A DNA stretch of 64,000 bases from Candidatus Babelota bacterium (GTDB taxonomy: Bacteria; Babelota; Babeliae; Babelales; GCA-2401785), in the NCBI GenBank assembly GCA_016871815.1, contig VHBT01000004.1, positions 5,454 through 69,453 of the forward strand, in the 5' to 3' direction. The position numbers and the translations under genes were made by a program. Shown one piece after another: positions 9,059-53,499 of the stretch (positions within the stretch are counted from its first letter, which is position 1; the number at the start of each line of letters is the position of its first letter). The notes under the pieces were generated by a model. The model ran no database searches, was not told the DNA's origin, and was given only the letters and a program-made list of their open reading frames with translations.

Positions 9059-9250
9059 TGGTAATGCCTTTCACAATATGGTTAAATCCCCAAAAAGAGT
9101 ACTGTATGCAAACGCGTCTTCGTCAAGATTGACGTAAATCCATCAGAACCAAGGCCAATTCAAAAAATCTTTCAATGTGAAACATCTCGATGCCAAAAAA
9201 TATTAATTTTTAATGATTTTCCTAGATTAATAAGTCTTTTTTGCGTGTCA

Positions 9251-9295
9251 CCATAAATTCCAGTACCATAAATTCCAGTACCATAAATTCCAGTA
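9251..9295. repeat. 15-bp perfect tandem repeat x3 (CCATAAATTCCAGTA) immediately upstream of a start codon
   Basis: Three exact copies at 9251-9265, 9266-9280 and 9281-9295, then a degenerate fourth unit CCATCAAAAGTGATA ending 2 nt before the ATG at 9313. Confidence 0.9.
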
Positions 9296-9312
9296 CCATC
9301 AAAAGTGATAGT

Positions 9313-18866: not shown

Positions 18867-19015
18867 AAAAAACCTTTGTCGCATATCGCAAAATGACAAA
18901 AAACAGCTGATTTTTAGATCAATTTTTGAAAAAAAAGAATTTCTATATTCTAAATAATTCGATAGAAAAAACGCTTCATTTTATTATCTATAAAAATACG
19001 AAAGAACAATCCTTA

Positions 19016-20092
19016 ATGAACACCCTTAAAAAACTTTTTTGCTTTGTGCTTCTTTTTATCGCAGGCTCTGCCGCTCCTGCCGCCCTAGAACTTTCATTGT
19101 CTGCTGGTCCTCGGGCAACTCTGGCCGACATTTTTGGTTCAACACAGAACGACAAAACAATTTTTAATATCCCAAACACCCCGCACTTTAGATATTGGTA
19201 CGATTTTACAGCACCTCGTGAATACAATGCTTTTTACACAACAACCGCAGGCACAATCTCGCTTGGTGGCCTTGTCCGCTTTATTGATGAAGGCCTTGAA
19301 ATTTTTTCAACCGATGCGGCATACCAAGAGTGCAAACAAGCCCTCAATAAAATGATCGAGCTCCATAAAGACTATCAAGCTCGCCCATCAAAAAAGAAGC
19401 GCGCAGCCCTTGAACAAGCTCAAGTAGAGATTATTGAGTCACTTTCTAAAGTTGAACTTTCTGAACAAACAACAACCGATCTTTGCGCTCTTCTTTCTAG
19501 TCCAGAACAGTCAACATTAAAAAAAATTGTTTCATTATTCATTCTTCCGTATCGATCTCACTTGGTTGAAAAAGAAATTCCAACAAAAGCTGTTGTTAGC
19601 CGCGGAGAACTATGGAAAGAAGTTGTTAAATACTGGTGGGGCGGCATAACGCTTGGACTGTTTGTAGGAGTATCGCTATTTCCCGTGATTGGAGCCGTGA
19701 CCCCATTTGTTGCAACAACATTTTTTGATTGGATGTATCCATCTGGATCAACATTCGCACTCTCAAAAACAATTGTTTCAGGGTTTGATAAAACAAAGAA
19801 TGAATTTATCAAAGAAACAATTTCTCTCTCATCTGCTATGGATCGCTCAGAAACAAAAGAACTCTTTATAAAACACTGGGGCAACAATTTGATGGGACAA
19901 GTAATGCAAATTCCATTAACAATTGCACATGTTGCACTTCGTTGTACCAACTTTAAACTTGCACCAGAACCAGAAGATGGTGTTATTGTAACCCTTGACA
20001 GAAGCTTGAATAACTCAGCAACAGGAATTGACCCAACTCAAGACTTTATAAACAACTCTGCCAACGATTCTCACTCAGCGCTTGCTGCATAA
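19016..20092 (+). CDS. Hypothetical secreted/membrane protein, cassette protein A1 (paralog of 21123-22019)
   Basis: The ATG at 19016 gives signal peptide MNTLKKLFCFVLLFIAGSAAPAALE. Internal ~35-aa hydrophobic segment WWGGITLGLFVGVSLFPVIGAVTPFVATTFFDW. Shared motifs with A2 are listed in the findings. Confidence 0.6.
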   Translation: MNTLKKLFCFVLLFIAGSAAPAALELSLSAGPRATLADIFGSTQNDKTIFNIPNTPHFRYWYDFTAPREYNAFYTTTAGTISLGGLVRFIDEGLEIFSTDAAYQECKQALNKMIELHKDYQARPSKKKRAALEQAQVEIIESLSKVELSEQTTTDLCALLSSPEQSTLKKIVSLFILPYRSHLVEKEIPTKAVVSRGELWKEVVKYWWGGITLGLFVGVSLFPVIGAVTPFVATTFFDWMYPSGSTFALSKTIVSGFDKTKNEFIKETISLSSAMDRSETKELFIKHWGNNLMGQVMQIPLTIAHVALRCTNFKLAPEPEDGVIVTLDRSLNNSATGIDPTQDFINNSANDSHSALAA

Positions 20093-29376: not shown

Positions 29377-32300
29377 TCCTCTACGTGAGCATCGGCAGTT
29401 GGGTCAAAATTAAATTTAAAAAACGCTTCGGCATCGTCGGGCTTGTTTTGATTTTGATACAAAATCATTTTAGGGAATGGGAACACAACTCCCTTTTCCC
29501 TGAATAATTTATACAATGCCACACGAATATCACTCGCAACATCCCATTGCTCACGAACCTTACGAATACTGACAAAGCCCCTGACAAAATAATCTGCTGC
29601 CGATGGCGCAAAATTATCCAAGCGAATAACCGCAGGCGGCACACGCAAAACCAGTGCATGTGCATTTAAAACTTTACGAATCAGAGTCATAACAAGGTCA
29701 GGATCGTTCTCGTACCCAACAGTCACGGTAAATTCAAAGCCAACAGAAATTTTGCCTCCACCCCAATTAAATAATGAATGCGAAATTAAATGACGATTGG
29801 GGATAACAACAAAATAATTTTGTGCTGTTCTAATAATCGTTGAGCGTGCAGAAATTTTATGTACCAGCCCTCGCGTATTTTCGATACTTATGTAATGCCC
29901 AATTTCAATTTGACGCTCCAACAAAATCAACAAGCCTGCAACAAAATCTGCAACAAAATCTCTTGATGCCAAAGCAGCACCAACACAAATCGAAATCAAA
30001 ACAGGAAGCACCATCGCCGCTAACTTGACGTATGAAAGGCCAAGCATGAAAGAAAGCAATAAAAAAATGATTCTAAATATCCGCGAAAACGTATTTTGTG
30101 CCCCTGGCTCTGCACCAAAAACCTCATAGACCTTACTCAGGATAAAACGATCTAAAAGAGTCATGACCAAATATCCACATACAACAAAAAGATATACAGT
30201 CAGAATCTCTATAATTCCAATTTTTATTCCATCGTGAGAAAAAACCCACTCATCACAAACTGCTGTCCATAGGCGCGCAAAATTGTACTGCAATCCCCAA
30301 ATCTGAGACAAAACCGCAACCATAAAAAAGCAGAGCGCAAAAAAACTAACCGTAACAAAAAAGCCGTAGTAGACTTTTGCATTTTCAAACCGAGAAACAA
30401 GCTCATCGTCTCGCTGCTCAATAAATACCCACACAACCCGCTCTCGCAAAACCCCATACAAAAATAAGGCGCAAAATACAACCCCTACAGAAACAGGAAC
30501 GAAAAACGCCAAATACCAAGCAAGCTGAGAGTATCCAACATACGGATTTGCAAGCAAACAGAGAAGTACGAAAAAGAAAAAGAGCGGATAAAAATAACGA
30601 TCAACAGACTCCCGCGCACGCAACCAAAAATCACTTCGCCCAAAAAATAATCCAGTAAAATCATCTTTTTCAAAAAATAATGCTAAGGCAACAATCACAA
30701 GCAATGAATAAATCGCGAATAAAACATTTGGAAGAAATTCATACTTTGAACTAAACATTAACAACGCACTGCGCAAGGGGAGAGTAATTGCCGTTGAGTA
30801 AAATAAAACATCAAGCAATAATGTTGTTCTCTTTTGATTGCGTTCTCCGAAAAAGAAGTAACTTAAGCGCGCATTAAGCAATCGTAATTCGGAAAGAAAA
30901 TCATTTGCTAAATAAACCCACACCGGCGCAGAGCATAAAAAGAACCCACTAAATCCAACAGGGCCTGCAAAGAAACTCAAAAGCCCCCAGTACGTAAGCT
31001 TAAATTTAAAATGGATATATAAAAAAAGAAGCATATACACAGCTTGAATTTGCCGCAGAGCTGCATCAAAGAAAAGAAGTAATACGTTTAAATACCAAAA
31101 AATAAACGTTCCATTTTGATATGAAACAAAAAGCTGAAGACGCCTGCGAAGAAATTGTAAAACATGTCCTGCGATAATAAAGCCCGACCAGTACACAATA
31201 AAGGAAAGAAATAAGCCCACAAGCAATGCCCATGAGATCAATCTCAAGAATGAAAAGAAATCAAAAAAGTCATAAATTTTCCAAAAAACCATTTTTGAAA
31301 AATGCTGCAACTCTTCAGTTGCCCGCAGCATCATCACCATTGAAATGCCACGAGAAGATCGACGCCAAATATTTACATTTACACGACGAGCCTCTAGGTC
31401 ATTGATAGTTCCAATACATTGACGCAAAACTCGTTGATAAATTTTTAATAACTCACTCGCCCGAGAACTAATTTTTAAGGCATTAGCACTTTGATGCCGA
31501 ACTGACTCTCTTGCATCATTCAGACTCGCGATAATTTCTTTGCCCTTATCGCCAAGATCTGTTTTTGAAACCTCTATTAAGCGTTTCTTTAAACGATCCT
31601 GCTCTTCTTGCATGTGATGCGAAGCGAGTGCATCATTTTTACGCGCTTCATATGTTTTTATATCATACTCAAGCTTCCTGCGAATGGTGTTAATTTCTTC
31701 AATCAAGCTTCGAGAGATTTCACCCTCTGTTAACAATAAATACCTGATATTAACCTTGGTATAACTAAATCCTTTTTCCATAGCAAGTGCATGAGCAAGA
31801 TCATCATCGGCGGACAATAAAGAAATCTGTCCCGTAAGCGCTTTAATAATGTTTTTATCAAGCGATTCTTTGGCCTGATAAAGCAATCCTTCTGGAGTAT
31901 TTTCTTTTCCGGCAGCCCTTAAGGTTGCTAAGTTTGTTTTAACCTGCTCATAGCGTTCTCGTATGCGCTCTTTTTCAAATGTTTTTTCATTTAAAATTGC
32001 TCGAATTCTATCACGCTCAACACCAAGAAAAGCTTCCTGTTCTTCTTTTTTTGCTTTTAATCGATTGAGGTCAAAACTCTCTATAATTAAATTGTTCTTG
32101 ATCTTTGCAACAAGCGCCAAAAGCTTTTGATTTCGAGCGCGCAAAAGAGCTATTCCATCATCTACAGCAGAAAGATCTAAATCTATTTTTTTTATTTTTA
32201 CTTCAGTCAGAGAAATCTTATCAGCTAAAAGGTCCCGCTCTTTTTGTAACACAGATCGCTTATTTGACTCTTCCTGCTCTTCATAAGAACTAATTTCACC

Positions 32301-33059
32301 GCGACGAATAGGCTGTTCCAATTCTCGCTTTTTTGTCGCAAACTCTTTTTTTAAAAAATCTAATTGATCAAAAAGCGACGTCCGCTCAGGAAGAACAATG
32401 TTTCTTGAGTCCATTTCTTTTTTTATTTGATCATCAACTTCTTCAATTTCCATTTCAACAAAAGTCCAATCTTCTATCGAATAAGGAATTTTTTTCGACA
32501 GATCCTCTCCTTTGCGCACAACCACATCTGATTGCGCTTGAAACGTTTCTATGTTTTCTTCCACAACACCTAGAATTGTTGCCCAAACACGCAAAATCCC
32601 ATTTATAACTTGTTCTTGCTCATCATTCAAAGCCAAAATTTTTTTTTGAGTGTCTTCTCCCAACCGAGCAATTTCTTCGCTCACTTCACCTCGTCGTAAT
32701 TTTGAAGCAAAACCAATAATTGAAAGCCGCCGTAAATCAAACATTTTTAATGCTTTTAATTTTTCTTCGCGCAATTTTTTCAATTTTTGCTCTAATGCTT
32801 CAATTTTTTGAACTCGCAAAACAGTTTCATCACGATTAAAAACTTGCTCAACCGCACGAGTACTTTCTGCTAAAGTCTTAAGACCAAAAAGATTTCCTGT
32901 CATTGACTCCAACCATGACCCGGAATGGTTTTTACTTAAATCATCTCGATCAAAACTTCCCTGCGAAAATAAGAGGTCTTGCGTAAAGATAATAAGCAAA
33001 AGCAAAATAAATTTGCCCGCCCTAAAACTATTAAGATTCCTCACTTCACCGATCCCCAT
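29373..33059 (-). CDS. Large mechanosensitive ion channel, MscK/KefA-like (MscS family)
   Basis: 1228 aa: N-terminal signal, a long coiled-coil periplasmic-type region, about 10 or more TM segments, and a C-terminal MscS-like domain (GLVHKISARSTIIRTAQNYFVVIPNRHLISHSLFNW). Confidence 0.75.
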   Translation of the reverse strand: MGIGEVRNLNSFRAGKFILLLLIIFTQDLLFSQGSFDRDDLSKNHSGSWLESMTGNLFGLKTLAESTRAVEQVFNRDETVLRVQKIEALEQKLKKLREEKLKALKMFDLRRLSIIGFASKLRRGEVSEEIARLGEDTQKKILALNDEQEQVINGILRVWATILGVVEENIETFQAQSDVVVRKGEDLSKKIPYSIEDWTFVEMEIEEVDDQIKKEMDSRNIVLPERTSLFDQLDFLKKEFATKKRELEQPIRRGEISSYEEQEESNKRSVLQKERDLLADKISLTEVKIKKIDLDLSAVDDGIALLRARNQKLLALVAKIKNNLIIESFDLNRLKAKKEEQEAFLGVERDRIRAILNEKTFEKERIRERYEQVKTNLATLRAAGKENTPEGLLYQAKESLDKNIIKALTGQISLLSADDDLAHALAMEKGFSYTKVNIRYLLLTEGEISRSLIEEINTIRRKLEYDIKTYEARKNDALASHHMQEEQDRLKKRLIEVSKTDLGDKGKEIIASLNDARESVRHQSANALKISSRASELLKIYQRVLRQCIGTINDLEARRVNVNIWRRSSRGISMVMMLRATEELQHFSKMVFWKIYDFFDFFSFLRLISWALLVGLFLSFIVYWSGFIIAGHVLQFLRRRLQLFVSYQNGTFIFWYLNVLLLFFDAALRQIQAVYMLLFLYIHFKFKLTYWGLLSFFAGPVGFSGFFLCSAPVWVYLANDFLSELRLLNARLSYFFFGERNQKRTTLLLDVLFYSTAITLPLRSALLMFSSKYEFLPNVLFAIYSLLVIVALALFFEKDDFTGLFFGRSDFWLRARESVDRYFYPLFFFFVLLCLLANPYVGYSQLAWYLAFFVPVSVGVVFCALFLYGVLRERVVWVFIEQRDDELVSRFENAKVYYGFFVTVSFFALCFFMVAVLSQIWGLQYNFARLWTAVCDEWVFSHDGIKIGIIEILTVYLFVVCGYLVMTLLDRFILSKVYEVFGAEPGAQNTFSRIFRIIFLLLSFMLGLSYVKLAAMVLPVLISICVGAALASRDFVADFVAGLLILLERQIEIGHYISIENTRGLVHKISARSTIIRTAQNYFVVIPNRHLISHSLFNWGGGKISVGFEFTVTVGYENDPDLVMTLIRKVLNAHALVLRVPPAVIRLDNFAPSAADYFVRGFVSIRKVREQWDVASDIRVALYKLFREKGVVFPFPKMILYQNQNKPDDAEAFFKFNFDPTADAHVED

Positions 33060-41882: not shown

Positions 41883-42080
41883 ACACCCATACTCCTAAAA
41901 ATTTTTTATCCAATTTCAAAAAACTCGTCACAATAGCCATTATCAGAAAAGTTTTGACACATTGTCATTTTATCATGTATGGTCAAAAAGAGAAATTCGA
42001 CTACCACTTCATATAGTCAAGACCCTCAAAACTCGATATCCTGCTTACAGTCTAAAACTATATTTAAATCGGAAAACACT

Positions 42081-44354
42081 ATGGCAGGCAACGGAAAAGA
42101 TTCGCAATCATCTGACTCAAACTCTCAAAAACTTATTATTGTAGAATCTCCTGGAAAAATAAAAACCATTTCTAAGTTTTTAGATAGCAACTTTAAAGTT
42201 GTTTCCACCGTTGGCCACATCAAAGACCTTCCTGAAAAAAAGCTTGGTGTTTCAATCGATGAAAAAACAGGTTTGATAGAACTTGAATACGTCGCCCTCA
42301 GCGGAAAACAAACAGTTATCACTGATATTTGCAAACAAGCTGTAAAATGCAGTGAAATCTTCCTCGCAGCCGATCCGGATCGCGAAGGAGAAATTATTGC
42401 GTGGCACATTGGCGAAGAAATCGCAAAAGTTTTAAAAAACAAAGCTAAAATCCATAGAATTTCATTTAACGAAATCACAAAACCTGCCGTCCTTGAAGCT
42501 GTGCAAAATAAACGCGATATCGATATGGCAAAAGTAGAAGCTCAGCAAGCTCGTCGCGTACTTGACCGCTGGGTTGGGTATGAGGTTTCGCCTCTTTTGT
42601 GGAAAAAAATCACCAAAGGCCTTTCTGCTGGACGCGTGCAATCTGCAGCTGTTTTACTGATTTGCAATCGCGAAGAAGAGATCCGAAACTTTAAACCAGA
42701 AGAATCATGGTCTGTTCATGTCTTGTTCTCGGTTGGCAAAGAAACACTGCTCGCTGAACTCTTTAAAATCAAACAAAAAGCAGCAAAAATTAAAACCGAA
42801 AAAGATGCGCTTGAAATTGTAAAAAGTATTCAAGAGACGCTTTTTTCTATCACAACGATCACGGAAAAAGATCGCCTACGAAATGCCCTGCCTCCATTTA
42901 TGACCAGCACACTCCAGCAAGATGCCTACAATAAGCTTGGTTTTTCTGTAGACAAAACAATGACGCTTGCTCAAAAACTGTACGAAGGGGTTGCTCTTTC
43001 AGACCCTAACAGCCCTGAAGCGCTGATTACCTACATGCGAACCGACTCGCTGCGTATTTCCGACACGGCACTTGATGAAGCAAAAAAATATATCGTCGGC
43101 CAATATGGCAAAGAATTTTATCCCTCAAAAACTAATATTTACTCAAAAAGCGGAGCTCAAGACGCCCACGAAGCAATTCGTCCAATTAGCGTAAATATTT
43201 CGCCCGAAAAGGTAAGTGCATTTGTCGAACCAGACCTTGCAAAACTCTACAAACTGATTTGGCAACGATTTGTCTCCTCCCAGATGGCGCCAGCTAAATA
43301 TTTTCAACGACAAATATTAATCGACGGCAAAGAGTACACTCTCAAAGCAACTGGCTCTACGCTCGTTTTTGAGGGCTGCTTAAAAGTCTACTCAGTCGAA
43401 GAAGAAGGCGACGAAGAACAAACAACAAAAATTCCAAAAGCAATAGCAGTTGGACAATCGCTTGAACAAAAAGAAGTTTCTAAGAAACAGCATTTTACAC
43501 AACCTCCAGCTCGCTACACAGAAGCAACCATGATTAAAGAGCTCGAAAAACGTGGAATTGGTCGCCCAAGTACCTTTATGGCAACCCTTTCAACGATTCA
43601 AAAGCGTGGATACGTCAATAAAAATGCTAAGCGATTTCAACCAACAGAACTTGGCGAAACAGTTAATGGATTTCTCACAAAAAACCTTCCCGATATTTTC
43701 AACATTACCTTTACCGCAACGATGGAAGAAGATCTGGATAAAATTGCAAACAATGAAGCAAAGCGCGATGCGGTGCTTAAGCTTTTTTACCAAAAACTTA
43801 AAGAAGATTTAGAAAAATTAGGCGAAGTCCCAAAAGGAAAAACAACAGTCATAACCGATATCGATTGCCCAAAATGTGGCAAAAAAATGGCGATTAGATT
43901 CGGAAAAGGACAACAGTTCCTGGGATGTACCGGCTTTCCAGAATGCAGTACGACTTCAAAATTTGAACGTGACGAACAAGGCAAAATTACATTAATCGAA
44001 CAAGAACCTCTGCCAACAGTTGATGAAAACTGTCCAAAATGTGGTACCGGAATGGTTACGCGGATTGGACGATATGGACCATTTATCGCCTGTCCAGGAT
44101 ATCCAAAATGCTCCTACATTAAACAAGAAGTATTTGAGCATCCATGCCCAAGCTGTGGCAACTCAATTGGCAAAAAAACCTGGAAAAATGGTGTCTTTTG
44201 GGGCTGTAATTCGCATCCAAAATGTACCGTTGCGTTCTCTGGAGAAATTAGAAACACCCCATGCCCGCAATGCAATACCCCGTTCTTGGTCTATGGACCA
44301 AGAACAGGATTAAAGTGCTGCAAATTGGGTTGCCCATTTGTTTCTCAAGAATAA
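42081..44354 (+). CDS. topA: DNA topoisomerase I
   Basis: Toprim LIIVESPGKIKTISKFL, active-site region ITYMRTDS, and multiple C-terminal CxxC...CxxC zinc ribbons. The ATG at 41979 is an alternative start. Confidence 0.95.
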   Translation: MAGNGKDSQSSDSNSQKLIIVESPGKIKTISKFLDSNFKVVSTVGHIKDLPEKKLGVSIDEKTGLIELEYVALSGKQTVITDICKQAVKCSEIFLAADPDREGEIIAWHIGEEIAKVLKNKAKIHRISFNEITKPAVLEAVQNKRDIDMAKVEAQQARRVLDRWVGYEVSPLLWKKITKGLSAGRVQSAAVLLICNREEEIRNFKPEESWSVHVLFSVGKETLLAELFKIKQKAAKIKTEKDALEIVKSIQETLFSITTITEKDRLRNALPPFMTSTLQQDAYNKLGFSVDKTMTLAQKLYEGVALSDPNSPEALITYMRTDSLRISDTALDEAKKYIVGQYGKEFYPSKTNIYSKSGAQDAHEAIRPISVNISPEKVSAFVEPDLAKLYKLIWQRFVSSQMAPAKYFQRQILIDGKEYTLKATGSTLVFEGCLKVYSVEEEGDEEQTTKIPKAIAVGQSLEQKEVSKKQHFTQPPARYTEATMIKELEKRGIGRPSTFMATLSTIQKRGYVNKNAKRFQPTELGETVNGFLTKNLPDIFNITFTATMEEDLDKIANNEAKRDAVLKLFYQKLKEDLEKLGEVPKGKTTVITDIDCPKCGKKMAIRFGKGQQFLGCTGFPECSTTSKFERDEQGKITLIEQEPLPTVDENCPKCGTGMVTRIGRYGPFIACPGYPKCSYIKQEVFEHPCPSCGNSIGKKTWKNGVFWGCNSHPKCTVAFSGEIRNTPCPQCNTPFLVYGPRTGLKCCKLGCPFVSQE

Positions 44355-44374
44355 AAATTGTTAGCGACACAAGC

Positions 44375-44410
44375 AAAATTGACCAGCTATTAATACCTGG
44401 TCAATTTTAT
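44375..44410. terminator. Terminator hairpin between convergent genes
   Basis: Stem ATTGACCAG (44378-44386) / CTGGTCAAT (44397-44405), followed by TTTTAT. Confidence 0.65.
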
Positions 44411-44447
44411 TATTAATTACAAAAGCCATAAGCGCATAATGAATTTA

Positions 44448-45494
44448 TCAAGATACTAAGTTATACTTCCATCGAATGTCATCGGCAGTCTTTTTACAAT
44501 GAACGACCAACTCATCAAATGTTTTTTTCATGAATAAAGAAGACGTGGAAATTAGGTTTTTATTTAATAAAAATTCTATGTTCGCATAAGGATCCAAGAA
44601 ACAAATAATTTCATCTTGAGGAAAATCCGCTTCTATTTGAAGCTGCACACAAACCCCTTGCCTGTTTACATAATTATTAACGGGAAATTCTCCCCAGGCC
44701 ACAATCATGTTACACGCCACAGCCAACTTTAAGGCGAAATGCTTGCGTGATCCAAAAAACCCCAAAAGATTTGGGTACTTATTATCAAAATACGCTTGAG
44801 CAAAAAGCTGCTCTGAAGATGAATTGTCTGCTGAATCAAGAGAAAAAGTTTTTCTCTCGTGCTCTGCTAATAATGAGACCCTATCCCTAATCAACAACGG
44901 CTTACTATCTTTCAGGGCATATTGAGCAACTGAATAGTCACCTCTCAAATAACGGCATGACAATAAATCAACTATATCTTCTTCTACTATTGGCTTTAGG
45001 TAATCATCTGCAATAACGATTAATGGAGCAAGCTCACAATTCCATCTTGCAAAGTCAAGAGCCCTTAAAGCCGCAACAAAGCGCTTATCTCTCAGCACGC
45101 CCTCTGAAATAATAAAAATAAACCTCGCTCCACATTCTCTGTATGGTAAATCACGAGAAAAGCGCGGATGATAGCCGCCATGATATCTCGTAACATCATC
45201 TAAGTTGTCTAGCGCACTTACATCACTCAACGCGCAAACATAATATGCAAATCTATTAACTCCACTTTCGTAATTCCATTTTTGCTGAGGATCGTTCGCC
45301 CCATTAAAATAAATTGATGCAATTTTTGCGGCCGGATGAGACTTGGTAAGCTCAGTTATTACTGCATCCATAAGTTTTTGAATATCAAGGGCTACCTGCA
45401 CAGAAGCCTGAGGAGAGCTCGACGGATACACATGAGCCACCCAAGTTACAACACCAACTATCACCAATAAAAAAGCTAGTACTGTTTTTTTCAC
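44448..45494 (-). CDS. Hypothetical secreted protein, family C (paralog of 47323-48975)
   Basis: Signal MKKTVLAFLLVIVGVVTWVAHV. Collinear similarity to the N-terminal ~350 aa of the 550-aa protein (motifs in findings). Confidence 0.6.
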   Translation of the reverse strand: MKKTVLAFLLVIVGVVTWVAHVYPSSSPQASVQVALDIQKLMDAVITELTKSHPAAKIASIYFNGANDPQQKWNYESGVNRFAYYVCALSDVSALDNLDDVTRYHGGYHPRFSRDLPYRECGARFIFIISEGVLRDKRFVAALRALDFARWNCELAPLIVIADDYLKPIVEEDIVDLLSCRYLRGDYSVAQYALKDSKPLLIRDRVSLLAEHERKTFSLDSADNSSSEQLFAQAYFDNKYPNLLGFFGSRKHFALKLAVACNMIVAWGEFPVNNYVNRQGVCVQLQIEADFPQDEIICFLDPYANIEFLLNKNLISTSSLFMKKTFDELVVHCKKTADDIRWKYNLVS

Positions 45495-45624
45495 TTTATT
45501 AATACCTTTTTTGCATCAAAATTACATTTAAAGTGTAGCATATTTGTTATTTAAGTATTTTTTATTTAAAAATCATGCAAAAAAACATTTTTAACGCTAT
45601 TTAACGACCAAAAAAATTTCAAGA

Positions 45625-46110
45625 TCAGTTATTCATCCAGATAAACCAATTCAGGTACATTGCAAAAAAGAGCCAAAAAGCGTATGGAGCGAATAAGAAA
45701 GAAATATTTTTTGTTCGCTCATCTGTATACAGCTCATAAATCAAAAAACAAACCGTAAAGACAAGCGCAATCAAACAAATGAGGGCCGCTCCAATTGATT
45801 TATACGCAAAAAACAATGGCGACCAGGACCAATTCAAAATTAACTGAAAAACATACAATTTTTTTACCAAGGTTAAATCAAAAATAATCCCAAGATCCCA
45901 AATCATCCAACCCCCAAGCGCAATCAAAATGTATAAAATCGGCCAGACAATACCAAACGTATAATTGGGAGGAGTCAACGGCGATCGATTGATATGCTCG
46001 TACCAATCTGGAATAGCACCCCTGGTTATTTTTCCAAGAACAAAACTCATTGCTAATAAAACAAAAATCCAGACAAAAAGCTGCGCTGCTTTTTTAAAAT
46101 TAATCATCAT
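45625..46110 (-). CDS. tspO: TspO/MBR-family tryptophan-rich sensory protein
   Basis: 161 aa with 5 TM segments. Trp-rich motifs PPNYTFGIVWPILYILIALGGWMIW and LNWSWSPLFF. Confidence 0.8.
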   Translation of the reverse strand: MMINFKKAAQLFVWIFVLLAMSFVLGKITRGAIPDWYEHINRSPLTPPNYTFGIVWPILYILIALGGWMIWDLGIIFDLTLVKKLYVFQLILNWSWSPLFFAYKSIGAALICLIALVFTVCFLIYELYTDERTKNISFLFAPYAFWLFFAMYLNWFIWMNN

Positions 46111-46205
46111 AAAAAGTCTCTTAACTTCTAATTAATACAAAATTAAGGTAAACCCGATGAATCTAAAAATTAAACATTCTTTATAAAAAGATTATTAAGT
46201 TACGG

Positions 46206-47090
46206 CTATTTTTTAAAATCAGCTAACGAGTAATTGTTAAACAAAGCTATTTCTGCGTTCTTTTTAGTAAGTACTGTAGAAAAATCTTTCCAAAGCAAAC
46301 GGCCAAATCTTTGTGTAACAAAAATACTTAAACCCAAAAAAGCAAACAGTCGCGCATAATTTCCCCATGCATTTCTTTCTTGAGTTGAATATCGTTTGTA
46401 TATCTCTTCGCTACCAGCAATTGTCATCATTATTCCCGCAAAGCAAATAAACAGATTTGTTATTCCAACAATACCTAAAGATGATTTTTGCCCGAGGTTA
46501 AAAAGAATACTAAGTAAAACAAACTTAATTTCTTCATTACACTCCGGATTTTCAGATTCCATCACCAAGCGAGCTGATAAGAATTTATTTTCGTGCTGCT
46601 CTATGACCAAAAACACTTTAATGAGTTGCAATTCTGTTTTAATAAAAAAAGTAGTAGATTTTTTTTCCTGCCAAGCCTGCAAAATCAATTTCTTTAATCT
46701 ATCCAAACCATCTGATTTTGCGGTAGCAATATTCACACTTATTTCAGTTGCTATGGATGGCTTTGAAAACCAATAAAAATAAGTATTAATAGCCTGTAAG
46801 TCCTGCTCGGATGACAAATCTACGGTCAAAACCGTATTTTCCTCACCAAAAGACTCCCTGTTTGGTATACCTGCTCCTTGCTCTACCCCAACAAGACAAA
46901 TTTCGCCAGACAGCTGATATGCTCCATAAAACTCAAGCCCATTAGCTAATGTCTTTCTGAGATAGGTTGATGGACCCTGTGCAGCATGAGTAGAAACCAC
47001 AGCTTCTTCGCTTACATCGTTCTCGTGAACAATATCGCTGCCAAAAACAGGTGAAAGGAAAACAAAAAAGATCAAAATATATTTATTCAT
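46206..47090 (-). CDS. Hypothetical secreted/membrane protein
   Basis: 294-aa ORF with signal MNKYILIFFVFLSPVFG and two hydrophobic segments near the C-terminus. Confidence 0.5.
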   Translation of the reverse strand: MNKYILIFFVFLSPVFGSDIVHENDVSEEAVVSTHAAQGPSTYLRKTLANGLEFYGAYQLSGEICLVGVEQGAGIPNRESFGEENTVLTVDLSSEQDLQAINTYFYWFSKPSIATEISVNIATAKSDGLDRLKKLILQAWQEKKSTTFFIKTELQLIKVFLVIEQHENKFLSARLVMESENPECNEEIKFVLLSILFNLGQKSSLGIVGITNLFICFAGIMMTIAGSEEIYKRYSTQERNAWGNYARLFAFLGLSIFVTQRFGRLLWKDFSTVLTKKNAEIALFNNYSLADFKK

Positions 47091-47322
47091 AGAGGTTACA
47101 AGTTACTTAAAAACAGATCTAATATACTAAAAATATAACAAATAAACGTTATTTAAAGCCTCAAAGCACAACCTAAAAAACAAACCCTTTATTGTGAAAA
47201 AACGCTCTACAATTTGATTCAGACTGAATCAAATTGATCAAAAACAATAAAATGTTGAATAAAAATTACATCACCCGGCATGAGACAAACAACATGCAGT
47301 GCAAAAATATTGGCGATAAGAG

Positions 47323-48975
47323 TTATTTAGAAAAATATTTAGCAGTATTTCGAGCTCTTTTGATAACCTCATCAAGAAACGCTTCTTTGGTTTTTGGGAC
47401 TCTTTTTATATCTTTCGTAAAAATGCGCTCACGAACATGATAGGTAGGAAATTCAGCATATTTTTCTGGGCGAGACCAAAAGTTGTATTCCAAATAATCT
47501 TCTCGATCAAGAACAATAATTTTTTGATTCGCATTTTTATACGTTCTGTCTTTGTAGTAAGGAATATCAAAATCTCTTAACGTATCTCTCGACCGATGTA
47601 TTTTCTGTCCTTCTTCCAATGTTTGCCATTCGCCACTTGTAAGCACCACAATAGTTAGCTTGCCTCCACGCGGTTTAATTCCAGCAATTTTTTCTTTATC
47701 GTCACACCGCACAACCGCAAACTCACGACCAACTTTTACTTTTAAATCTTTAAACAACTGCTGCATGGTGTAGGTAACTGCAAGATTTTCTTCTTCGTCT
47801 GTGAATTTTTTAACACCATCGATCATTTGCTTTTTTTCAATAGCTTCTTTGCATAATGCAACCAAGCCCTCAAAGGTCGAAGGCTCACTTGAAAAGTCAC
47901 CCGTTAATAGTGTGTCTCGATTAAACTTGAAGGTCATGGAATGTGAATCCAAAAAACAAACTATCTCATTTTCAGGGGCTGAAGCATAATAAGCATGGCG
48001 TTCTTCATACAAATTATACCGCGAAATATTGCCATTTTTGCTTACATAACAACAATAAGACGGCTGCCTTTGAGAACCTGAATCCGGTTGTTCATATTCC
48101 CCAACTTCATTCCAAGACACTGTCATGTTACACGTTTTTGCTAATTTAACTGCGATATATTGTTGAGATCCACCAGTTACCCTGCGAGCCAATGCTTTAT
48201 TGAAATACGCCTGAGCAAAGCGTTCTTCTGCTGACACTGCGCTCGTACAATCAAGGTTAAAAATCTTTCTCGTGTGTTGTGCTAATCCTTTAAATCCATC
48301 CCGAATTAACACGGGCAAACCATTTTGAAATGCATACTGATCAACAAAAAAAGAATTCCTATAAATATCGCAAAAATTATCACTGGCCAAATCAAGCAAC
48401 ACTTCTTCAGCAACAGGATTATGATAATTCTCTGGAACAATAATCAGTGATTGCAAACCCCGACAACTCATAACTACAGCAGAAAAAGCTGCCACAAAAC
48501 GCCTATCCTTAAGTATGCCTTCTGAAATAATAAGAAAAAAAGTTTTGTATCCTGCAGTGCCTTCTGGGAATGCGCTCAAAAAGCGCGGTACATATTTCGA
48601 ATCAATACTACTAACATCATCTAGAGCAGCTATATCACTCACCGCGCAAACAACCGCAGCCTTATCTACAAGATTACAAACTCTCGTCTGTTCATCATGC
48701 ACCCCATTAAAGTGGATTGTTGCAACAGTATAATAACGGGGAGAAAAGGTTTTATGGTACTCTCCAACAATCGCATGAATAAGTTTTTCCATATCAAGAC
48801 TTACCGCTTGAGCTGATTCAGGCTCACAAGACTTTTCAGCGCCGCCCCCCATACCTACCTCAGCGCATTCCTGCGTCAGACCTTCAGGATTTACATTTTT
48901 TTTGTACACCTGAACCACGCAAGCTGCAGCACAAGCCACCGCAAAAAAGAATACCATTCTTTTTATCTTCATCAC
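47323..48975 (-). CDS. Hypothetical secreted protein, family C with ~200-aa C-terminal extension
   Basis: Signal-like MVFFFAVACAAACVVQV. The N-terminal two thirds are paralogous to 44448-45494. Confidence 0.6.
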   Translation of the reverse strand: MMKIKRMVFFFAVACAAACVVQVYKKNVNPEGLTQECAEVGMGGGAEKSCEPESAQAVSLDMEKLIHAIVGEYHKTFSPRYYTVATIHFNGVHDEQTRVCNLVDKAAVVCAVSDIAALDDVSSIDSKYVPRFLSAFPEGTAGYKTFFLIISEGILKDRRFVAAFSAVVMSCRGLQSLIIVPENYHNPVAEEVLLDLASDNFCDIYRNSFFVDQYAFQNGLPVLIRDGFKGLAQHTRKIFNLDCTSAVSAEERFAQAYFNKALARRVTGGSQQYIAVKLAKTCNMTVSWNEVGEYEQPDSGSQRQPSYCCYVSKNGNISRYNLYEERHAYYASAPENEIVCFLDSHSMTFKFNRDTLLTGDFSSEPSTFEGLVALCKEAIEKKQMIDGVKKFTDEEENLAVTYTMQQLFKDLKVKVGREFAVVRCDDKEKIAGIKPRGGKLTIVVLTSGEWQTLEEGQKIHRSRDTLRDFDIPYYKDRTYKNANQKIIVLDREDYLEYNFWSRPEKYAEFPTYHVRERIFTKDIKRVPKTKEAFLDEVIKRARNTAKYFSK

Positions 48976-48992
48976 TTAATACCCAAATTATC

Positions 48993-50624
48993 TCAACAAA
49001 AACTATGTAAAATACTCAAAAAAATCCAAATAGCTTCGGCGGCAAAAACCCCTGATGCGATCGGCATATATTTTTTATCTTTACCAAGCACTTGGTTAAT
49101 TCCCGCTCCAAATAAAAATGCAAAAACAAGCTCTTTTGGCATCAACAATCCACCAAGAACCATCGATGGTGACATTTTACAAAACCGTAAAACAATTCCA
49201 ACCATGAGGCCAAAAACTAAGCTTAATAAATCAAAATCGAATGATTTTATGAGAAGAGCTCGAGCATATCCGCGAAACCCAAAGAACTCCGCCGAGCCAA
49301 GCTGCAAATGCGAACACAATATAAAAAATCCTGCAACCACAAAAATTGATGCCAAACAAATCGCAGCAACATGAATCCAGTACATTGTCGATCGCTTCAT
49401 TTTTAATTCATCTGCTAATCGATACTGAAAAAGCATGCTGCCAGCAACCGCTCCAGAAATAGAAACAGCCGCAGAAACCAAAACGGCATGAAACGCAGAA
49501 ACTCTAAAAAAAACCAACGCTGGCAACATCACAAATGTTGCAAATCGCCCAAACTGTACCAATCCAATTTGTCCAGCCATCAAAGTCATTTGATATACCG
49601 CAACAAGCACTGCTCCAAACAGAAAAAGTATTAGAAAAGGGTCTTTAATTCCATATGGCCACAAACCCGCTATTGCAAAAAGAGATGCTAGGAAAAAATA
49701 CTCGACCCGAACCGTGCAGCTGATCTTTTTGATAAACGATAAAAAATTTTCACTCTCCGCGGGCTCTCTTTCTGAACTCAAAAAACTGTTAATTTTTTTG
49801 ATCGCAGTTACAACAAATTGCCCACCACCAAAAAGCAAATCGGTCAAAACCAGTCCGCTACTCACAGCAACAAAATATTGCTCAAGAGAAATCGCGTGAA
49901 CTTGATGAGCAAAATAAAAATAATGCACCGGCTTAAACAAGCAATATTTAAGGCAAATCCCTACAAGCAAGCCAATCGCCATAGTCTTGCCTGCGATAAA
50001 CCCAACCGCCCAAATCGTTGGCGTAATAAGCCCTGAAAATAGAGTTGCGCCCCCCTGCACAATACTTGGTACAACTCGCGCACTTGCAAGAATGTTTGCA
50101 AGTTTTCTTATCAAACACAACGCTGCTCCAAGCACCCCCCCCCGCAGCAAGAAAGAAAATTCTTCTTTTTCATGAGATGCGCTAATCGTTGTTTTTACCA
50201 ACTCTGCAACGGGAACCTTAAGGGCTGAATCTTTCAAAAGTGATTGCGCAAAAAAATGCCCAATGAGTAACCCAACCATTCCCCACGTAAAAATAAATAT
50301 GACGACTGGCCCAATGCCAACAAAAGTTCTTGCCTGAAGAATAGTCGTAAAATGCGTTGAATCTATAAAAAAATATGCTGGAAACGTAAACGCAACCGCT
50401 GATGCAATCAAACCGGTCGAGGCCCCAAGCGCTTGAATCCCTGCCAAATTCTGCCCTACGTTTTCAGAAAATATCCCAAAAAGACGCATAAGGGCTGCAG
50501 TTGAAAGGACTATAACTGGCGAGATCCATGGACCGATTCCACTTGAGATCGAGATATAAAGCAAAACAATACTTGCAAGAACAGCAAAGAAGGTTGATAC
50601 TAAAAACATAAAAACTTTGTTCAT
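48993..50624 (-). CDS. Multi-pass membrane transporter, possibly OPT (oligopeptide transporter) family
   Basis: About 540 aa with about 14 or more hydrophobic segments. The general pattern resembles bacterial OPT-type proteins, but this was recalled by eye and not verified. The ATG at 50624 follows AAAGGA. Confidence 0.4.
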   Translation of the reverse strand: MNKVFMFLVSTFFAVLASIVLLYISISSGIGPWISPVIVLSTAALMRLFGIFSENVGQNLAGIQALGASTGLIASAVAFTFPAYFFIDSTHFTTILQARTFVGIGPVVIFIFTWGMVGLLIGHFFAQSLLKDSALKVPVAELVKTTISASHEKEEFSFLLRGGVLGAALCLIRKLANILASARVVPSIVQGGATLFSGLITPTIWAVGFIAGKTMAIGLLVGICLKYCLFKPVHYFYFAHQVHAISLEQYFVAVSSGLVLTDLLFGGGQFVVTAIKKINSFLSSEREPAESENFLSFIKKISCTVRVEYFFLASLFAIAGLWPYGIKDPFLILFLFGAVLVAVYQMTLMAGQIGLVQFGRFATFVMLPALVFFRVSAFHAVLVSAAVSISGAVAGSMLFQYRLADELKMKRSTMYWIHVAAICLASIFVVAGFFILCSHLQLGSAEFFGFRGYARALLIKSFDFDLLSLVFGLMVGIVLRFCKMSPSMVLGGLLMPKELVFAFLFGAGINQVLGKDKKYMPIASGVFAAEAIWIFLSILHSFC

Positions 50625-50750
50625 CAACGATCCTTTTACAGCTTGGTAAAACCAATACACACGAATTTATCGCAAGAATGTTACGTAAGCAAATGGATGG
50701 CGATCTTTCATGTTATGAAATAGCTACCCAAAAAAAGCGAGGAACACCGG

Positions 50751-51262: not shown

Positions 51263-51607
51263 TTATCTTAAAAATCCATTTTCATGGATATTTCTTCCTG
51301 AGATAAAGTGCCAATGTAAATGCATCACTGATTGGCCTGCAGCTACACCATTATTCGCAATAATATTAAATGCCTGGTCCCCTGGAAGTTGAGCCGCCAA
51401 ATATTGAACCGTCTTTACCATAATCGCTGCCATGCGAGCATCAAACCCAGGGTCCTTCATGTCCTTAACAACTGTTTTGGGAATAATCAAATAATGAATA
51501 GGAGCCACCGGATTAATATCCTTGATGACAATAACATCAGAATCTTCATGCACAATTTGAGCAGGAATTTCACGATCAATTATTTTTGAAAAAAGAGTTT
51601 TTTGCAT
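51263..51607 (-). CDS. Histidine triad nucleotide-binding protein (HinT-like)
   Basis: MQKTLFSKIIDREIPAQIVHEDSDVIVIKDINPVAPIHYLIIPK and the triad HLHWHFISG. The track's longer ORF to 51775 runs across a tRNA gene and was trimmed. Confidence 0.85.
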   Translation of the reverse strand: MQKTLFSKIIDREIPAQIVHEDSDVIVIKDINPVAPIHYLIIPKTVVKDMKDPGFDARMAAIMVKTVQYLAAQLPGDQAFNIIANNGVAAGQSVMHLHWHFISGRNIHENGFLR

Positions 51608-51647
51608 ATCAACCTCAGAAAAAAGAAAGAGGAGAATAAAAAAGAAT

Positions 51648-51734
51648 TGGTGCCGAAGATCGGAGTCGAACCGATACGATATCACTATCGCGGGATTTTG
51701 AGTCCCGTGCGTCTGCCTGTTCCGCCACTTCGGC
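51648..51734 (-). tRNA. tRNA-Leu (anticodon CAA)
   Basis: On the minus strand: acceptor GCCGAAG/CTTCGGC, anticodon arm CGGGA-CTCAAAA-TCCCG, long variable arm, T-loop GGTTCGACTCC, encoded CCA. Confidence 0.9.
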
Positions 51735-51907
51735 CAGCACATTTCAAAGAGTACCACACCAGAATCACGCGTCAAGGGAATAATGCGCTACTATAAACAT
51801 CTTTTCAGAAAAAACAGCTATTTATGCATAAAATAACACGCTTTTTTCAGCATCTTTGCTATGCTCTGCGGCAAGCACTTAAAATTCAAATAAAAAACGA
51901 GATTGCC

Positions 51908-53144: not shown

Positions 53145-53221
53145 GCGCCCATAGCTCAATTGGATAGAGTACCAGACTACGAATCTGGCGGTTAGAGGTT
53201 CGACCCCTCTTGGGCGCACCA
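53145..53221 (+). tRNA. tRNA-Arg (anticodon ACG)
   Basis: Acceptor GCGCCCA/TGGGCGC, anticodon arm CCAGA-CTACGAA-TCTGG, encoded CCA. Confidence 0.9.
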
Positions 53222-53280
53222 TGTTTGCTTAAATGCTCACAAAAAATGATCATTGATATAATTAAAATATAAAAAAGCCT

Positions 53281-53372
53281 GGAGAGATGGCTGAGAGGTC
53301 TAAAGCGCTTGCCTGCTAAGTAAGTATTTGGGGAAACCTGAATCGAGGGTTCGAATCCCTCTCTCTCCGCCA
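53281..53372 (+). tRNA. tRNA-Ser (anticodon GCT)
   Basis: Acceptor GGAGAGA/TCTCTCC, anticodon loop CTGCTAA, long variable arm, T-loop GGTTCGAATCC, encoded CCA. Confidence 0.9.
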
Positions 53373-53409
53373 CAATGCACCAATAACTTTTTTTATATTT
53401 TATCCCGCT

Positions 53410-53499
53410 GGAGAGATGGCTGAGCGGTTGAAAGCACCGGTCTTGAAAACCGGCATACCTTAACGGGTATCGTGAGTTCGAATCTCACTCTCTCCACCA
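53410..53499 (+). tRNA. tRNA-Ser (anticodon TGA)
   Basis: Acceptor GGAGAGA/TCTCTCC, anticodon arm CCGGT-CTTGAAA-ACCGG, long variable arm, encoded CCA. Confidence 0.9.

What the first reader, a model, noticed from the sequence alone, without database searches (positions are those of the whole stretch)
44448..50624. Five-gene minus-strand block: two paralogous secreted proteins flank TspO and an orphan, next to a large transporter
44448-45494 (348 aa) and 47323-48975 (550 aa) are clear paralogs. Shared motifs are:

- SIYFNGANDPQQ / TIHFNGVHDEQT
- CALSDVSALDNLDDV / CAVSDIAALDDVSSI
- FIFIISEGVLRDKRFVAALRAL / FFLIISEGILKDRRFVAAFSAV
- FAQAYF in both
- LKLAVACNMIVAW / VKLAKTCNMTVSW
- EIICFLDPY / EIVCFLDSH

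The longer copy has a ~200-aa C-terminal extension. Between them lie a TspO/MBR gene and a signal-peptide orphan with C-terminal TM segments. A ~540-aa multi-pass transporter follows on the same strand. TspO proteins bind tetrapyrroles and sterols, so a TspO embedded among secreted orphans in a likely host-dependent bacterium may be a lineage-specific envelope or host-metabolite module.
Basis: partly seen in the sequence, partly recalled or inferred. Interest (0 to 1): 0.55.

Follow-up and report, generated by a model that had tools for sequence, protein, structure and literature searches.

The report
Species-specific gene insertion carrying borrowed TspO
In one uncultured Dependentiae (TM6) bacterium, four genes have been inserted between two conserved genes: a TspO membrane protein of a type shared among intracellular bacteria, and three exported proteins found nowhere else. 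This is an ordinary lineage-specific accessory insertion, not a conserved functional module.

Summary
The 348-aa and 550-aa proteins are true paralogues (BLASTP E=3e-53, 35% identity). A full-length TspO (PF03073, E=2e-33) and a signal-peptide orphan lie between them. The upstream 543-aa multi-pass protein is a divergent OPT-family transporter.

The "five-gene block" splits in two. The OPT gene is a conserved core gene. In four relatives (OPT 48-70% identical) it abuts topA directly, 1-24 bp away. So famC-long, the orphan, TspO and famC-short form a 4.6-kb insertion seen only in this species.

The paralogue family has no other member among 1.84 billion representative proteins. It also has no Pfam, NCBIfam, PHROG, PADLOC, PDB-sequence or plasmid match. 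AlphaFold models were too poor (pLDDT 43 and 55) to assign a fold.

The TspO belongs to a clade found mostly in intracellular bacteria (Rickettsiales, Holosporales, Legionellales, Francisellaceae, Chlamydiae) and on Piscirickettsia and Rickettsia plasmids, so horizontal acquisition is likely.

One oddity remains. The only other Dependentiae TspO I found also sits beside the topA-OPT locus, but it is not a close relative.

Functional coupling among the genes is unproven. Interest is modest.

The parts
41979..44354 (+). topA (DNA topoisomerase I). This is the conserved flank. In relatives its stop codon abuts the OPT stop codon.
   Evidence: Pfam Topoisom_bac, Toprim and Zn_ribbon_Top1. Synteny in L004, L005, L006 and the P0003 contig.
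44375..44408 (.). Perfect-stem hairpin between the convergent topA and famC-short genes. It is a likely bidirectional intrinsic terminator that closes the inserted block.
   Evidence: Inverted repeat I4, 17-nt arms, 94% complementary. RNA folding gives -18.6 kcal/mol on one strand and -13.8 on the other, z = -5.7 and -5.3, with 0 of 200 shuffles as stable.
44448..45494 (-). famC-short (348 aa, MBM3894272, FJ366_01610). An exported ORFan protein and paralogue of famC-long.
   Evidence: BLASTP E=3e-53 against famC-long. N-terminal hydrophobic segment at residues 4-22 after MKK. Six Cys are invariant between the paralogues. No family hits.
45625..46110 (-). TspO/MBR tryptophan-rich membrane protein (161 aa, MBM3894273).
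   Evidence: PF03073 E=2.1e-33 over the full-length profile. It keeps all 34 columns that are invariant across the clade alignment. Five hydrophobic segments.
46206..47090 (-). Orphan protein (294 aa, MBM3894274). It has a signal peptide, a domain of about 180 aa, and C-terminal hydrophobic segments. No database search found a homologue.
   Evidence: Hydropathy. No Pfam, NCBIfam, PHROG or PADLOC hit. No plasmid, viral-contig or metagenome-contig relatives. Unrelated to famC.
47197..47236 (-). A 12-bp AU-rich hairpin followed by a U-run, in the 232-bp gap after famC-long. It may be an internal terminator or attenuator that splits the block into two transcription units.
   Evidence: Sequence. 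Folding gives -14.2 kcal/mol, z = -2.7, with 5 of 200 shuffles as stable. Weak evidence.
47323..48975 (-). famC-long (544-550 aa depending on the start codon; MBM3894275). The shared famC domain plus a C-terminal extension of about 170 aa that has no detectable relatives.
   Evidence: Its start lies 17 nt after the OPT stop codon.
48993..50624 (-). Divergent OPT-family transporter (543 aa from the annotated start; MBM3894276). A conserved core gene, not part of the insertion.
   Evidence: Homologues at E=1e-56 and weaker carry PF03169. Of 29 aligned homologues, 11 hit PF03169, best E=1.4e-20. Conserved synteny with HIT upstream and topA downstream.

Best explanation
The region combines two things.

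**1. A conserved core gene.** This is a divergent OPT-family transporter. In this Dependentiae lineage it normally ends head-on against topA.

**2. A 4.6-kb accessory insertion (44355-48992) wedged into that convergent junction.** It has been seen only in this one species. It carries:
- a TspO gene of a clade that circulates by horizontal transfer among intracellular bacteria, and is plasmid-borne in Piscirickettsia and Rickettsia;
- an old duplicate pair of a species-restricted exported protein (famC): N-terminal signal or anchor, six conserved cysteines, alternating beta/alpha secondary structure;
- one orphan membrane-anchored exported protein.

**Shown:** the insertion, the paralogy, TspO membership, OPT homology, and the absence of any famC relative.

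**Inferred:**
- The four genes are expressed from the OPT promoter, an internal promoter, or both, and end at the hairpin shared with topA.
- TspO acts, as in studied bacteria, as a membrane tetrapyrrole-binding and stress protein that handles host-derived porphyrin or oxidative stress.
- famC and the orphan are fast-evolving, disulfide-stabilised envelope or surface proteins that face the host.

Co-function of the four genes is possible but not demonstrated.
For: **Insertion**
- OPT abuts topA, 1-24 bp apart, in relatives whose OPT is 48-70% identical, and flanking synteny is otherwise conserved (L007 is compatible).
- tblastn finds no famC, orphan or TspO in those loci.
- The junctions are reproduced in independent assemblies.

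**famC**
- A profile HMM search of 1.84e9 representative proteins returned only the two window proteins. The word-index search found only the query itself.
- No related loci in metagenome or viral contigs and none in plasmids.
- Identity by codon position follows pos2 > pos1 > pos3.
- Signal-like N-termini and invariant Cys.

**TspO origin**
- Closest relatives are 41-52% identical.
- Of 78 genome loci carrying the clade motifs, 44 are labelled Rickettsiales, Holosporales, Legionellales, Francisellaceae, Chlamydiae or Babeliales.
- Cluster members include Rickettsia spp. and Holospora.
- The clade occurs on Piscirickettsia salmonis and Rickettsia asiatica plasmids.
- In other hosts it travels with GyrI-like, APH kinase and beta-lactamase-like cargo genes.

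**Expression layout**
- All four genes lie on the same strand, with a 17-nt gap from OPT to famC-long.
- A strong terminal hairpin closes the block.
Against: - Codon usage and GC3 of the four genes cannot be told apart from the rest of the window. There is also no integrase, transposase, tRNA or flanking repeat at the borders. So recent horizontal arrival of the whole block is not shown. famC and the orphan could have arisen in place or diverged beyond recognition.
- The window TspO is a long basal branch in a neighbour-joining tree of a 160-aa protein, so its donor lineage is unresolved.
- No expression, localisation or ligand data exist.
- The structure models were unusable.
- The TspO-OPT adjacency in L069 hints at linkage with OPT, which this explanation treats as coincidental or as a hot-spot effect.
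Confidence: 0.7

Rival explanations
1. A true functional operon for host-metabolite uptake and handling. OPT imports a host-derived substrate (peptide, or a metal- or tetrapyrrole-type chelate). TspO binds or detoxifies tetrapyrrole in the membrane. The famC proteins and the orphan are periplasmic accessory binding or processing factors.
For: - All five genes lie on one strand. Only 17 nt separate OPT from famC-long, and one strong terminator closes the block.
- In the distant Babeliales MAG L069, TspO is again the immediate neighbour of the OPT gene at the topA locus.
- The two TspO sequences are not close relatives in the tree. That could mean repeated selection for the linkage.
Against: - OPT is conserved without the other four genes in all closer relatives. 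It therefore works without them.
- In L069, TspO is transcribed divergently from OPT, and famC and the orphan are absent.
- In about 73 other TspO loci the neighbours are unrelated cargo genes, and none is an OPT detectable by tblastn.
- A possible internal terminator follows famC-long.
- The linkage rests on only two loci.
Confidence: 0.15
2. The genes are unrelated passengers in a plastic spot of the genome. The topA-OPT-HIT neighbourhood would be a recombination or insertion hot spot where lineage-specific genes pile up. On this view the four genes share location only.
For: The content around OPT varies among Dependentiae:
- two small signal-peptide ORFs sit between topA and OPT in L069;
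- three extra genes sit between HIT and OPT in L091;
- RF-1 replaces topA downstream in L090 and L091.

Other ORFan paralogue pairs are scattered through the window.
Against: The two famC paralogues bracket TspO and the orphan in one orientation with no intervening foreign genes. This is more orderly than random accretion. It fits one acquisition event, or a local duplication around the central pair, just as well.
Confidence: 0.12
3. famC proteins are secreted enzymes with a degenerate alpha/beta-hydrolase-like fold, for example an esterase or lipase acting on host membranes. The proposed elements are 'IISEG' as a strand-Ser-helix nucleophile elbow, 'FNG' after the first strand as the oxyanion loop, and 'LIRD' as the acid residue.
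For: - Predicted alternating beta/alpha elements place these invariant motifs at strand ends.
- The top Foldseek hit for the short-copy model, though not significant, is a putative cell-surface alpha/beta hydrolase (3lp5, E=0.64).
- Reading the motifs this way is my own recollection of the fold. It is a lead, not a test.
Against: - No sequence or profile match to any hydrolase family or PDB chain.
- Foldseek probabilities are 0.12 or lower and TM-scores 0.22 or lower, on models with pLDDT 43-55.
- The residue at Ser-2 is Ile rather than the usual small residue.
- The only invariant His lies 8 residues after the candidate Asp, which is atypical.
Confidence: 0.08

Closest known systems
Bacterial TspO/MBR proteins (PF03073), e.g. 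Rhodobacter sphaeroides TspO and Bacillus cereus TspO
   Same: Full-length match to the family profile, about 160 aa, five hydrophobic helices, Trp-rich conserved motifs. From published work on those proteins (my own knowledge), the expected activity is tetrapyrrole binding and turnover, with a link to stress response.
   Different: - It belongs to a subclade marked by the NRSPLTPPN and QLILNWSW motifs. That subclade is found mainly in intracellular bacteria and on their plasmids.
- The window copy is the most divergent member of the subclade.
- It scores far below the NCBIfam alphaproteobacterial TspO equivalog cut-off (66 bits against 180).
- No ligand data exist.
OPT oligopeptide transporter family (PF03169, OPT/YSL)
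   Same: A multi-pass membrane protein of about 540 aa. It is homologous at E=1e-56 to 1e-31 to Dependentiae proteins that hit PF03169, one of which NCBI names an OPT/YSL family transporter.
   Different: The window protein and its 13 closest homologues do not themselves reach any Pfam or NCBIfam threshold. This is a divergent, Dependentiae-specific subfamily whose substrate is unknown.
Gene exchange among bacteria sharing protist hosts (the amoeba 'melting pot' idea, e.g. PMC5751055)
   Same: A gene clade (TspO) shared across unrelated intracellular lineages: alpha- and gammaproteobacteria, Chlamydiae and Dependentiae. It is plasmid-borne in some and often sits with other cargo genes.
   Different: At the window locus there are no mobility genes, repeats or compositional anomaly. 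TspO has not been described in this context in the literature I searched.

Membership tests
TspO/MBR (PF03073) | Profile HMM match above the curated threshold over the full domain | tested here: met
   115.6 bits against a cut-off of 24, E=2.1e-33, profile positions 2-145 of 145.
TspO/MBR (PF03073) | A five-helix membrane protein of about 150-170 aa with conserved Trp-rich motifs | tested here: met
   Five hydrophobic segments and 10 Trp in 161 aa. It retains all 34 invariant columns in a 28-sequence alignment.
TspO/MBR (PF03073) | Binds tetrapyrrole (porphyrin) ligands | not testable with these tools
   Needs a binding or degradation assay with purified protein.
OPT transporter (PF03169) | Direct profile HMM match above threshold | tested here: not met
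   No Pfam or NCBIfam family at E<=0.1 for the window protein.
OPT transporter (PF03169) | Full-length homology to proteins that do match PF03169 | tested here: met
   E=1.1e-56 to P0015 and E=3.7e-40 to P0026 (named OPT/YSL), with 92-97% coverage. Of 29 aligned homologues, 11 hit PF03169, best E=1.4e-20.
OPT transporter (PF03169) | Polytopic membrane topology (12 or more TM segments) | tested here: met
   At least 12 distinct hydrophobic segments by Kyte-Doolittle scan.
Mobile genomic island / integrative element | Integrase, transposase or relaxase, a tRNA or repeat-flanked border, atypical composition | tested here: not met
   - No mobility genes among the four ORFs.
- No flanking direct or inverted repeats beyond the paralogue similarity.
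- No tRNA at the borders.
- GC3 and synonymous codon use match the rest of the window.
UEV / E2-variant domain (PF05743) | Profile match above threshold, shared by both paralogues | tested here: not met
   17.7 bits against a cut-off of 27, in the short copy only.
Alpha/beta hydrolase fold | Sequence or structural match, and a Ser-Asp-His triad with a G-x-S-x-G elbow | tested here: inconclusive
   - No sequence match.
- Best Foldseek hit is 3lp5 at E=0.64 and TM 0.17-0.22, on a model with pLDDT 55.
- The motif is I-I-S-E-G rather than G-x-S-x-G.
Conserved gene neighbourhood (functional module) | The same gene set is adjacent in several related genomes | tested here: not met
   The four genes are absent from the orthologous site in L004, L005, L006 and the P0003 contig. 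famC has no homologue anywhere. Only OPT-TspO proximity recurs, and only once (L069).

The most novel reading that the evidence does not exclude
TspO was captured independently next to the same core OPT transporter in two Dependentiae lineages because the two proteins work together. For example, OPT would import a host-derived tetrapyrrole, metal-chelate or peptide, and TspO would bind or detoxify it. famC would then be a new exported, disulfide-bonded enzyme or binding-protein family, recruited in this species to serve that pathway at the host interface.
Probability: 0.12. Interest if true: 0.6.

Novelty: new member of a known kind. Interest (0 to 1): 0.3.

Why it matters
- **Annotation.** The analysis separates a conserved OPT gene from a species-specific insertion. 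It also corrects the picture of a "five-gene module".
- **A candidate for structural study.** famC is documented as a true ORFan family: two paralogues under protein-level selection and no relative in 1.84 billion representatives. If the organism can be sampled again, it is a candidate fast-evolving, host-facing envelope protein.
- **A side result with wider relevance.** A distinct TspO subclade is spread across unrelated intracellular bacteria and their plasmids, often next to drug- or xenobiotic-type cargo genes. This suggests that TspO is part of the shared accessory toolkit of bacteria living inside eukaryotic cells. The open-access literature I searched does not describe this.

None of these points changes current understanding unless the OPT-TspO linkage proves functional.

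Tried and rejected
- **famC homology.** Pfam, NCBIfam, PHROGs and PADLOC gave no hits. PDB searches with the single sequence and with the profile gave none. The word-index search found only the query. The exhaustive profile search found only the two window paralogues. Plasmids, viral contigs and metagenome contigs gave nothing.
- **famC structure.** AlphaFold2 on the two-sequence alignment gave pLDDT 43 for the long copy and 55.5 for the short copy. Foldseek against the PDB gave no hit with E<0.2. No fold is assigned.
- **UEV lead.** The weak Pfam hit was rejected by hhalign.
- **Orphan.** It is unrelated to famC. It has no relatives in plasmids, viral contigs or metagenome contigs.
- **Mobile-element signatures.** Repeats, tRNA and codon usage at the insertion gave nothing.
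- **Promoter scan.** It found fewer sites than in shuffled sequence and was uninformative.
- **Closest TspO relatives.** Their contexts (L008, L009, L092, L093) contain no famC-, orphan- or OPT-like neighbours.
- **Failed scripts.** The first bootstrap script timed out and a second call was lost. I re-ran a lighter neighbour-joining analysis.
Full report
**What is there**

ORF listing confirms five consecutive minus-strand genes:

| Gene | Coordinates | Length |
|---|---|---|
| famC-short | 44448-45494 | 348 aa |
| TspO | 45625-46110 | 161 aa |
| orphan | 46206-47090 | 294 aa |
| famC-long | 47323-48975 | 550 aa |
| multi-pass membrane protein | 48993-50660 | 543 aa from the annotated start at 50624 |

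NCBI holds these as MBM3894272-76 (FJ366_01610-01630) of a Candidatus Dependentiae MAG, on a 72.6-kb contig. Contigs assembled from three other sequencing runs are 100% identical in DNA across the block and both junctions. The arrangement is therefore real.

**The paralogues**

- famC-short and famC-long align over about 340 residues at 35% identity, E=3e-53.
- Nucleotide identity by codon position is 54%, 67% and 47.5%, against 27-30% expected from composition. Both copies are therefore maintained as proteins.
- Both begin with a basic stretch followed by a hydrophobic segment. They share six invariant cysteines. This fits export and disulfide bonding, which is an inference.
- The C-terminal extension of the long copy is about 170 aa.

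**TspO**

The match to PF03073 is full-length and strong (E=2e-33). The protein has five hydrophobic segments and 10 Trp. It keeps every column that is invariant in a 28-sequence alignment of its nearest relatives. It looks functional.

**The transporter**

It hits no Pfam or NCBIfam model directly. It is nevertheless homologous over its full length to Dependentiae proteins that carry PF03169 (OPT), at E=1e-56 and weaker. Of 29 aligned homologues, 11 hit PF03169.

**The key structural result**

I used the OPT homologues to fetch the orthologous locus from relatives.

- In four genomes or contigs whose OPT is 48-70% identical, OPT ends 1-24 bp from the end of a convergent topA. The flanks are syntenic with the window: YbeY, HIT and a protein of about 170 aa on one side, and a membrane protein of about 295 aa and a VWA pair on the other.
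- tblastn finds no famC, orphan or TspO in those loci.
- In more distant Dependentiae the HIT-OPT linkage persists while the downstream neighbour changes.

OPT is therefore a core gene. The other four genes are a 4.6-kb insertion (44355-48992) into the OPT/topA convergent junction, seen only in this species. The insertion has no integrase, transposase, flanking repeats or tRNA. Its GC3 and synonymous codon use match the rest of the window. It is either old and ameliorated or partly native in origin.

**famC is an ORFan family**

- A profile of the two paralogues, searched with HMMER against 1.84 billion representative proteins, returned only those two proteins.
- Nothing was found in Pfam, NCBIfam, PHROGs or PADLOC.
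- Nothing was found among PDB sequences, plasmids, viral contigs or JGI metagenome contigs.
- AlphaFold2 models built on the two-sequence alignment reached only pLDDT 43 (long) and 55.5 (short). Foldseek gave no hit better than E=0.26 (long-copy model) or E=0.64 (short-copy model).
- The predicted secondary structure alternates strands and helices in the N-terminal half, which suggests a three-layer alpha/beta domain. No fold can be assigned.
- A weak Pfam UEV hit was tested and rejected.
- The invariant motifs FNG, IISEG and LIRD sit at strand ends. They could be read as a degenerate alpha/beta-hydrolase active site. That is an untested recollection, not a result.
- The orphan is unrelated to famC. 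The searches still available found no relatives.

**Where the TspO came from**

- The nearest relatives are only 41-52% identical. Named ones include Holospora elegans, spotted-fever-group Rickettsia and the ciliate Blepharisma stoltei.
- I scanned GTDB species-representative genomes with the clade's two signature peptides and found 78 loci. Of these, 44 are labelled Rickettsiales (25), Holosporales (8), Legionellales (7), Francisellaceae (2), Chlamydiae (1) or Babeliales (1). Most of the rest carry only generic alpha- or gammaproteobacterial labels.
- The same clade lies on Piscirickettsia salmonis plasmids and on a Rickettsia asiatica plasmid.
- In other hosts TspO is often followed by a GyrI-like protein (17 loci). 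It also sits among APH-type kinases, a beta-lactamase-like protein, a methyltransferase and GNATs. The GyrI-like domain is nearly identical in the two loci I compared directly, one labelled Holospora and one gammaproteobacterial.

This subclade therefore behaves as mobile cargo among intracellular bacteria. Horizontal acquisition by the Dependentiae lineage is the most economical reading. In a neighbour-joining tree the window copy is a long, basal branch, so the donor is unresolved.

**An unexplained coincidence**

The single other Dependentiae (Babeliales) locus in that scan is L069. Its order is topA, two small signal-peptide ORFs, an OPT homologue (24% identity, E=1e-38), TspO (divergent from OPT), then an MFS gene. 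So both Dependentiae TspO genes found here lie within a few genes of the topA-OPT locus. Yet the two TspO sequences are not close: their distance ranks 76th of 84, and they grouped in a clade of 10 or fewer sequences in only 1 of 100 bootstrap replicates. Three readings remain open:
- a hot spot for insertion;
- old vertical inheritance blurred by a long branch;
- functional coupling between OPT and TspO.

With only two loci this cannot be resolved.

**Expression layout (inferred)**

- famC-long starts 17 nt after the OPT stop codon.
- A 232-bp gap with a modest hairpin and U-run follows famC-long.
- The other gaps are 95 and 130 bp.
- A very stable hairpin sits between famC-short and topA (z = -5.7 and -5.3).

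Two plausible units are OPT plus famC-long, and orphan, TspO plus famC-short. Read-through across the whole block is also possible.

**Verdict**

The best explanation (confidence about 0.7) is a species-specific accessory insertion. It combines a horizontally circulating TspO with three fast-evolving exported ORFan proteins.

TspO most likely handles tetrapyrrole or oxidative stress inside the host, as inferred from published work on the family. The famC proteins and the orphan most likely act at the cell envelope or the host interface. Both functions are inferences.

Novelty: new members of known kinds (TspO, OPT, accessory insertion), plus an uncharacterised ORFan family. Interest is modest (0.3).

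The window also carries tandem TLC ATP/ADP transporters, consistent with the host-dependent lifestyle known for Dependentiae.

Noticed in passing
window 21-1499 and 1577-2989 (+): Two tandem paralogous TLC ATP/ADP (nucleotide) transporters: PF03219, 37% identical to each other. These are a hallmark of energy parasitism and support a host-dependent lifestyle.
   Followed up: partly
window 18926-20092 / 21102-22019 and 9241-10677 / 28681-29376 (+): Two further paralogue pairs with no Pfam match (E=5e-14 and 1e-25). Lineage-specific duplicated ORFan families seem common in this genome.
   Followed up: partly
L011-L088 (TspO loci of other intracellular bacteria): The TspO subclade is repeatedly followed by a GyrI-like small-molecule-binding protein (17 loci). 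It is also surrounded by APH kinases (16 and 12 loci), a beta-lactamase-like protein, a methyltransferase and GNATs. The GyrI-like domain is nearly identical in L012 (labelled Holospora) and L026 (gammaproteobacterial MAG), which points to a mobile cargo cluster or to binning cross-contamination.
   Followed up: partly
plasmids NZ_CP039236.1 and others (Piscirickettsia salmonis); NZ_AP019564.1 (Rickettsia asiatica): The same TspO subclade (45% identity to the window copy) is plasmid-borne in two unrelated intracellular pathogens. It is unannotated on the Rickettsia plasmid.
   Followed up: no
L069 2500-2970 and 3271-3750 (-): In a distant Babeliales MAG, the same topA/OPT slot holds two small ORFs with signal peptides and a shared PP-x-TP motif just after them. 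They are only marginally similar to each other (E=0.011). This parallels the exported ORFans at the window's slot.
   Followed up: partly
P0040 (Blepharisma stoltei): A ciliate genome record carries a TspO of the intracellular-bacteria subclade (47% identity to the window copy). It could reflect host-symbiont gene transfer or symbiont contamination of the assembly.
   Followed up: no
window 51651-51734 (-) and 53145-53496 (+): One tRNA gene overlaps the 5' part of the mechanically listed ORF 51263-51775, so the real HIT gene must start downstream of it. A cluster of three tRNAs lies at 53145-53496.
   Followed up: no
window 29373-33059 (-): An unusually large (1228 aa) protein. Only its C-terminal 160 residues or so match MscS mechanosensitive-channel domains, and the long N-terminal part has no family.
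   Followed up: no
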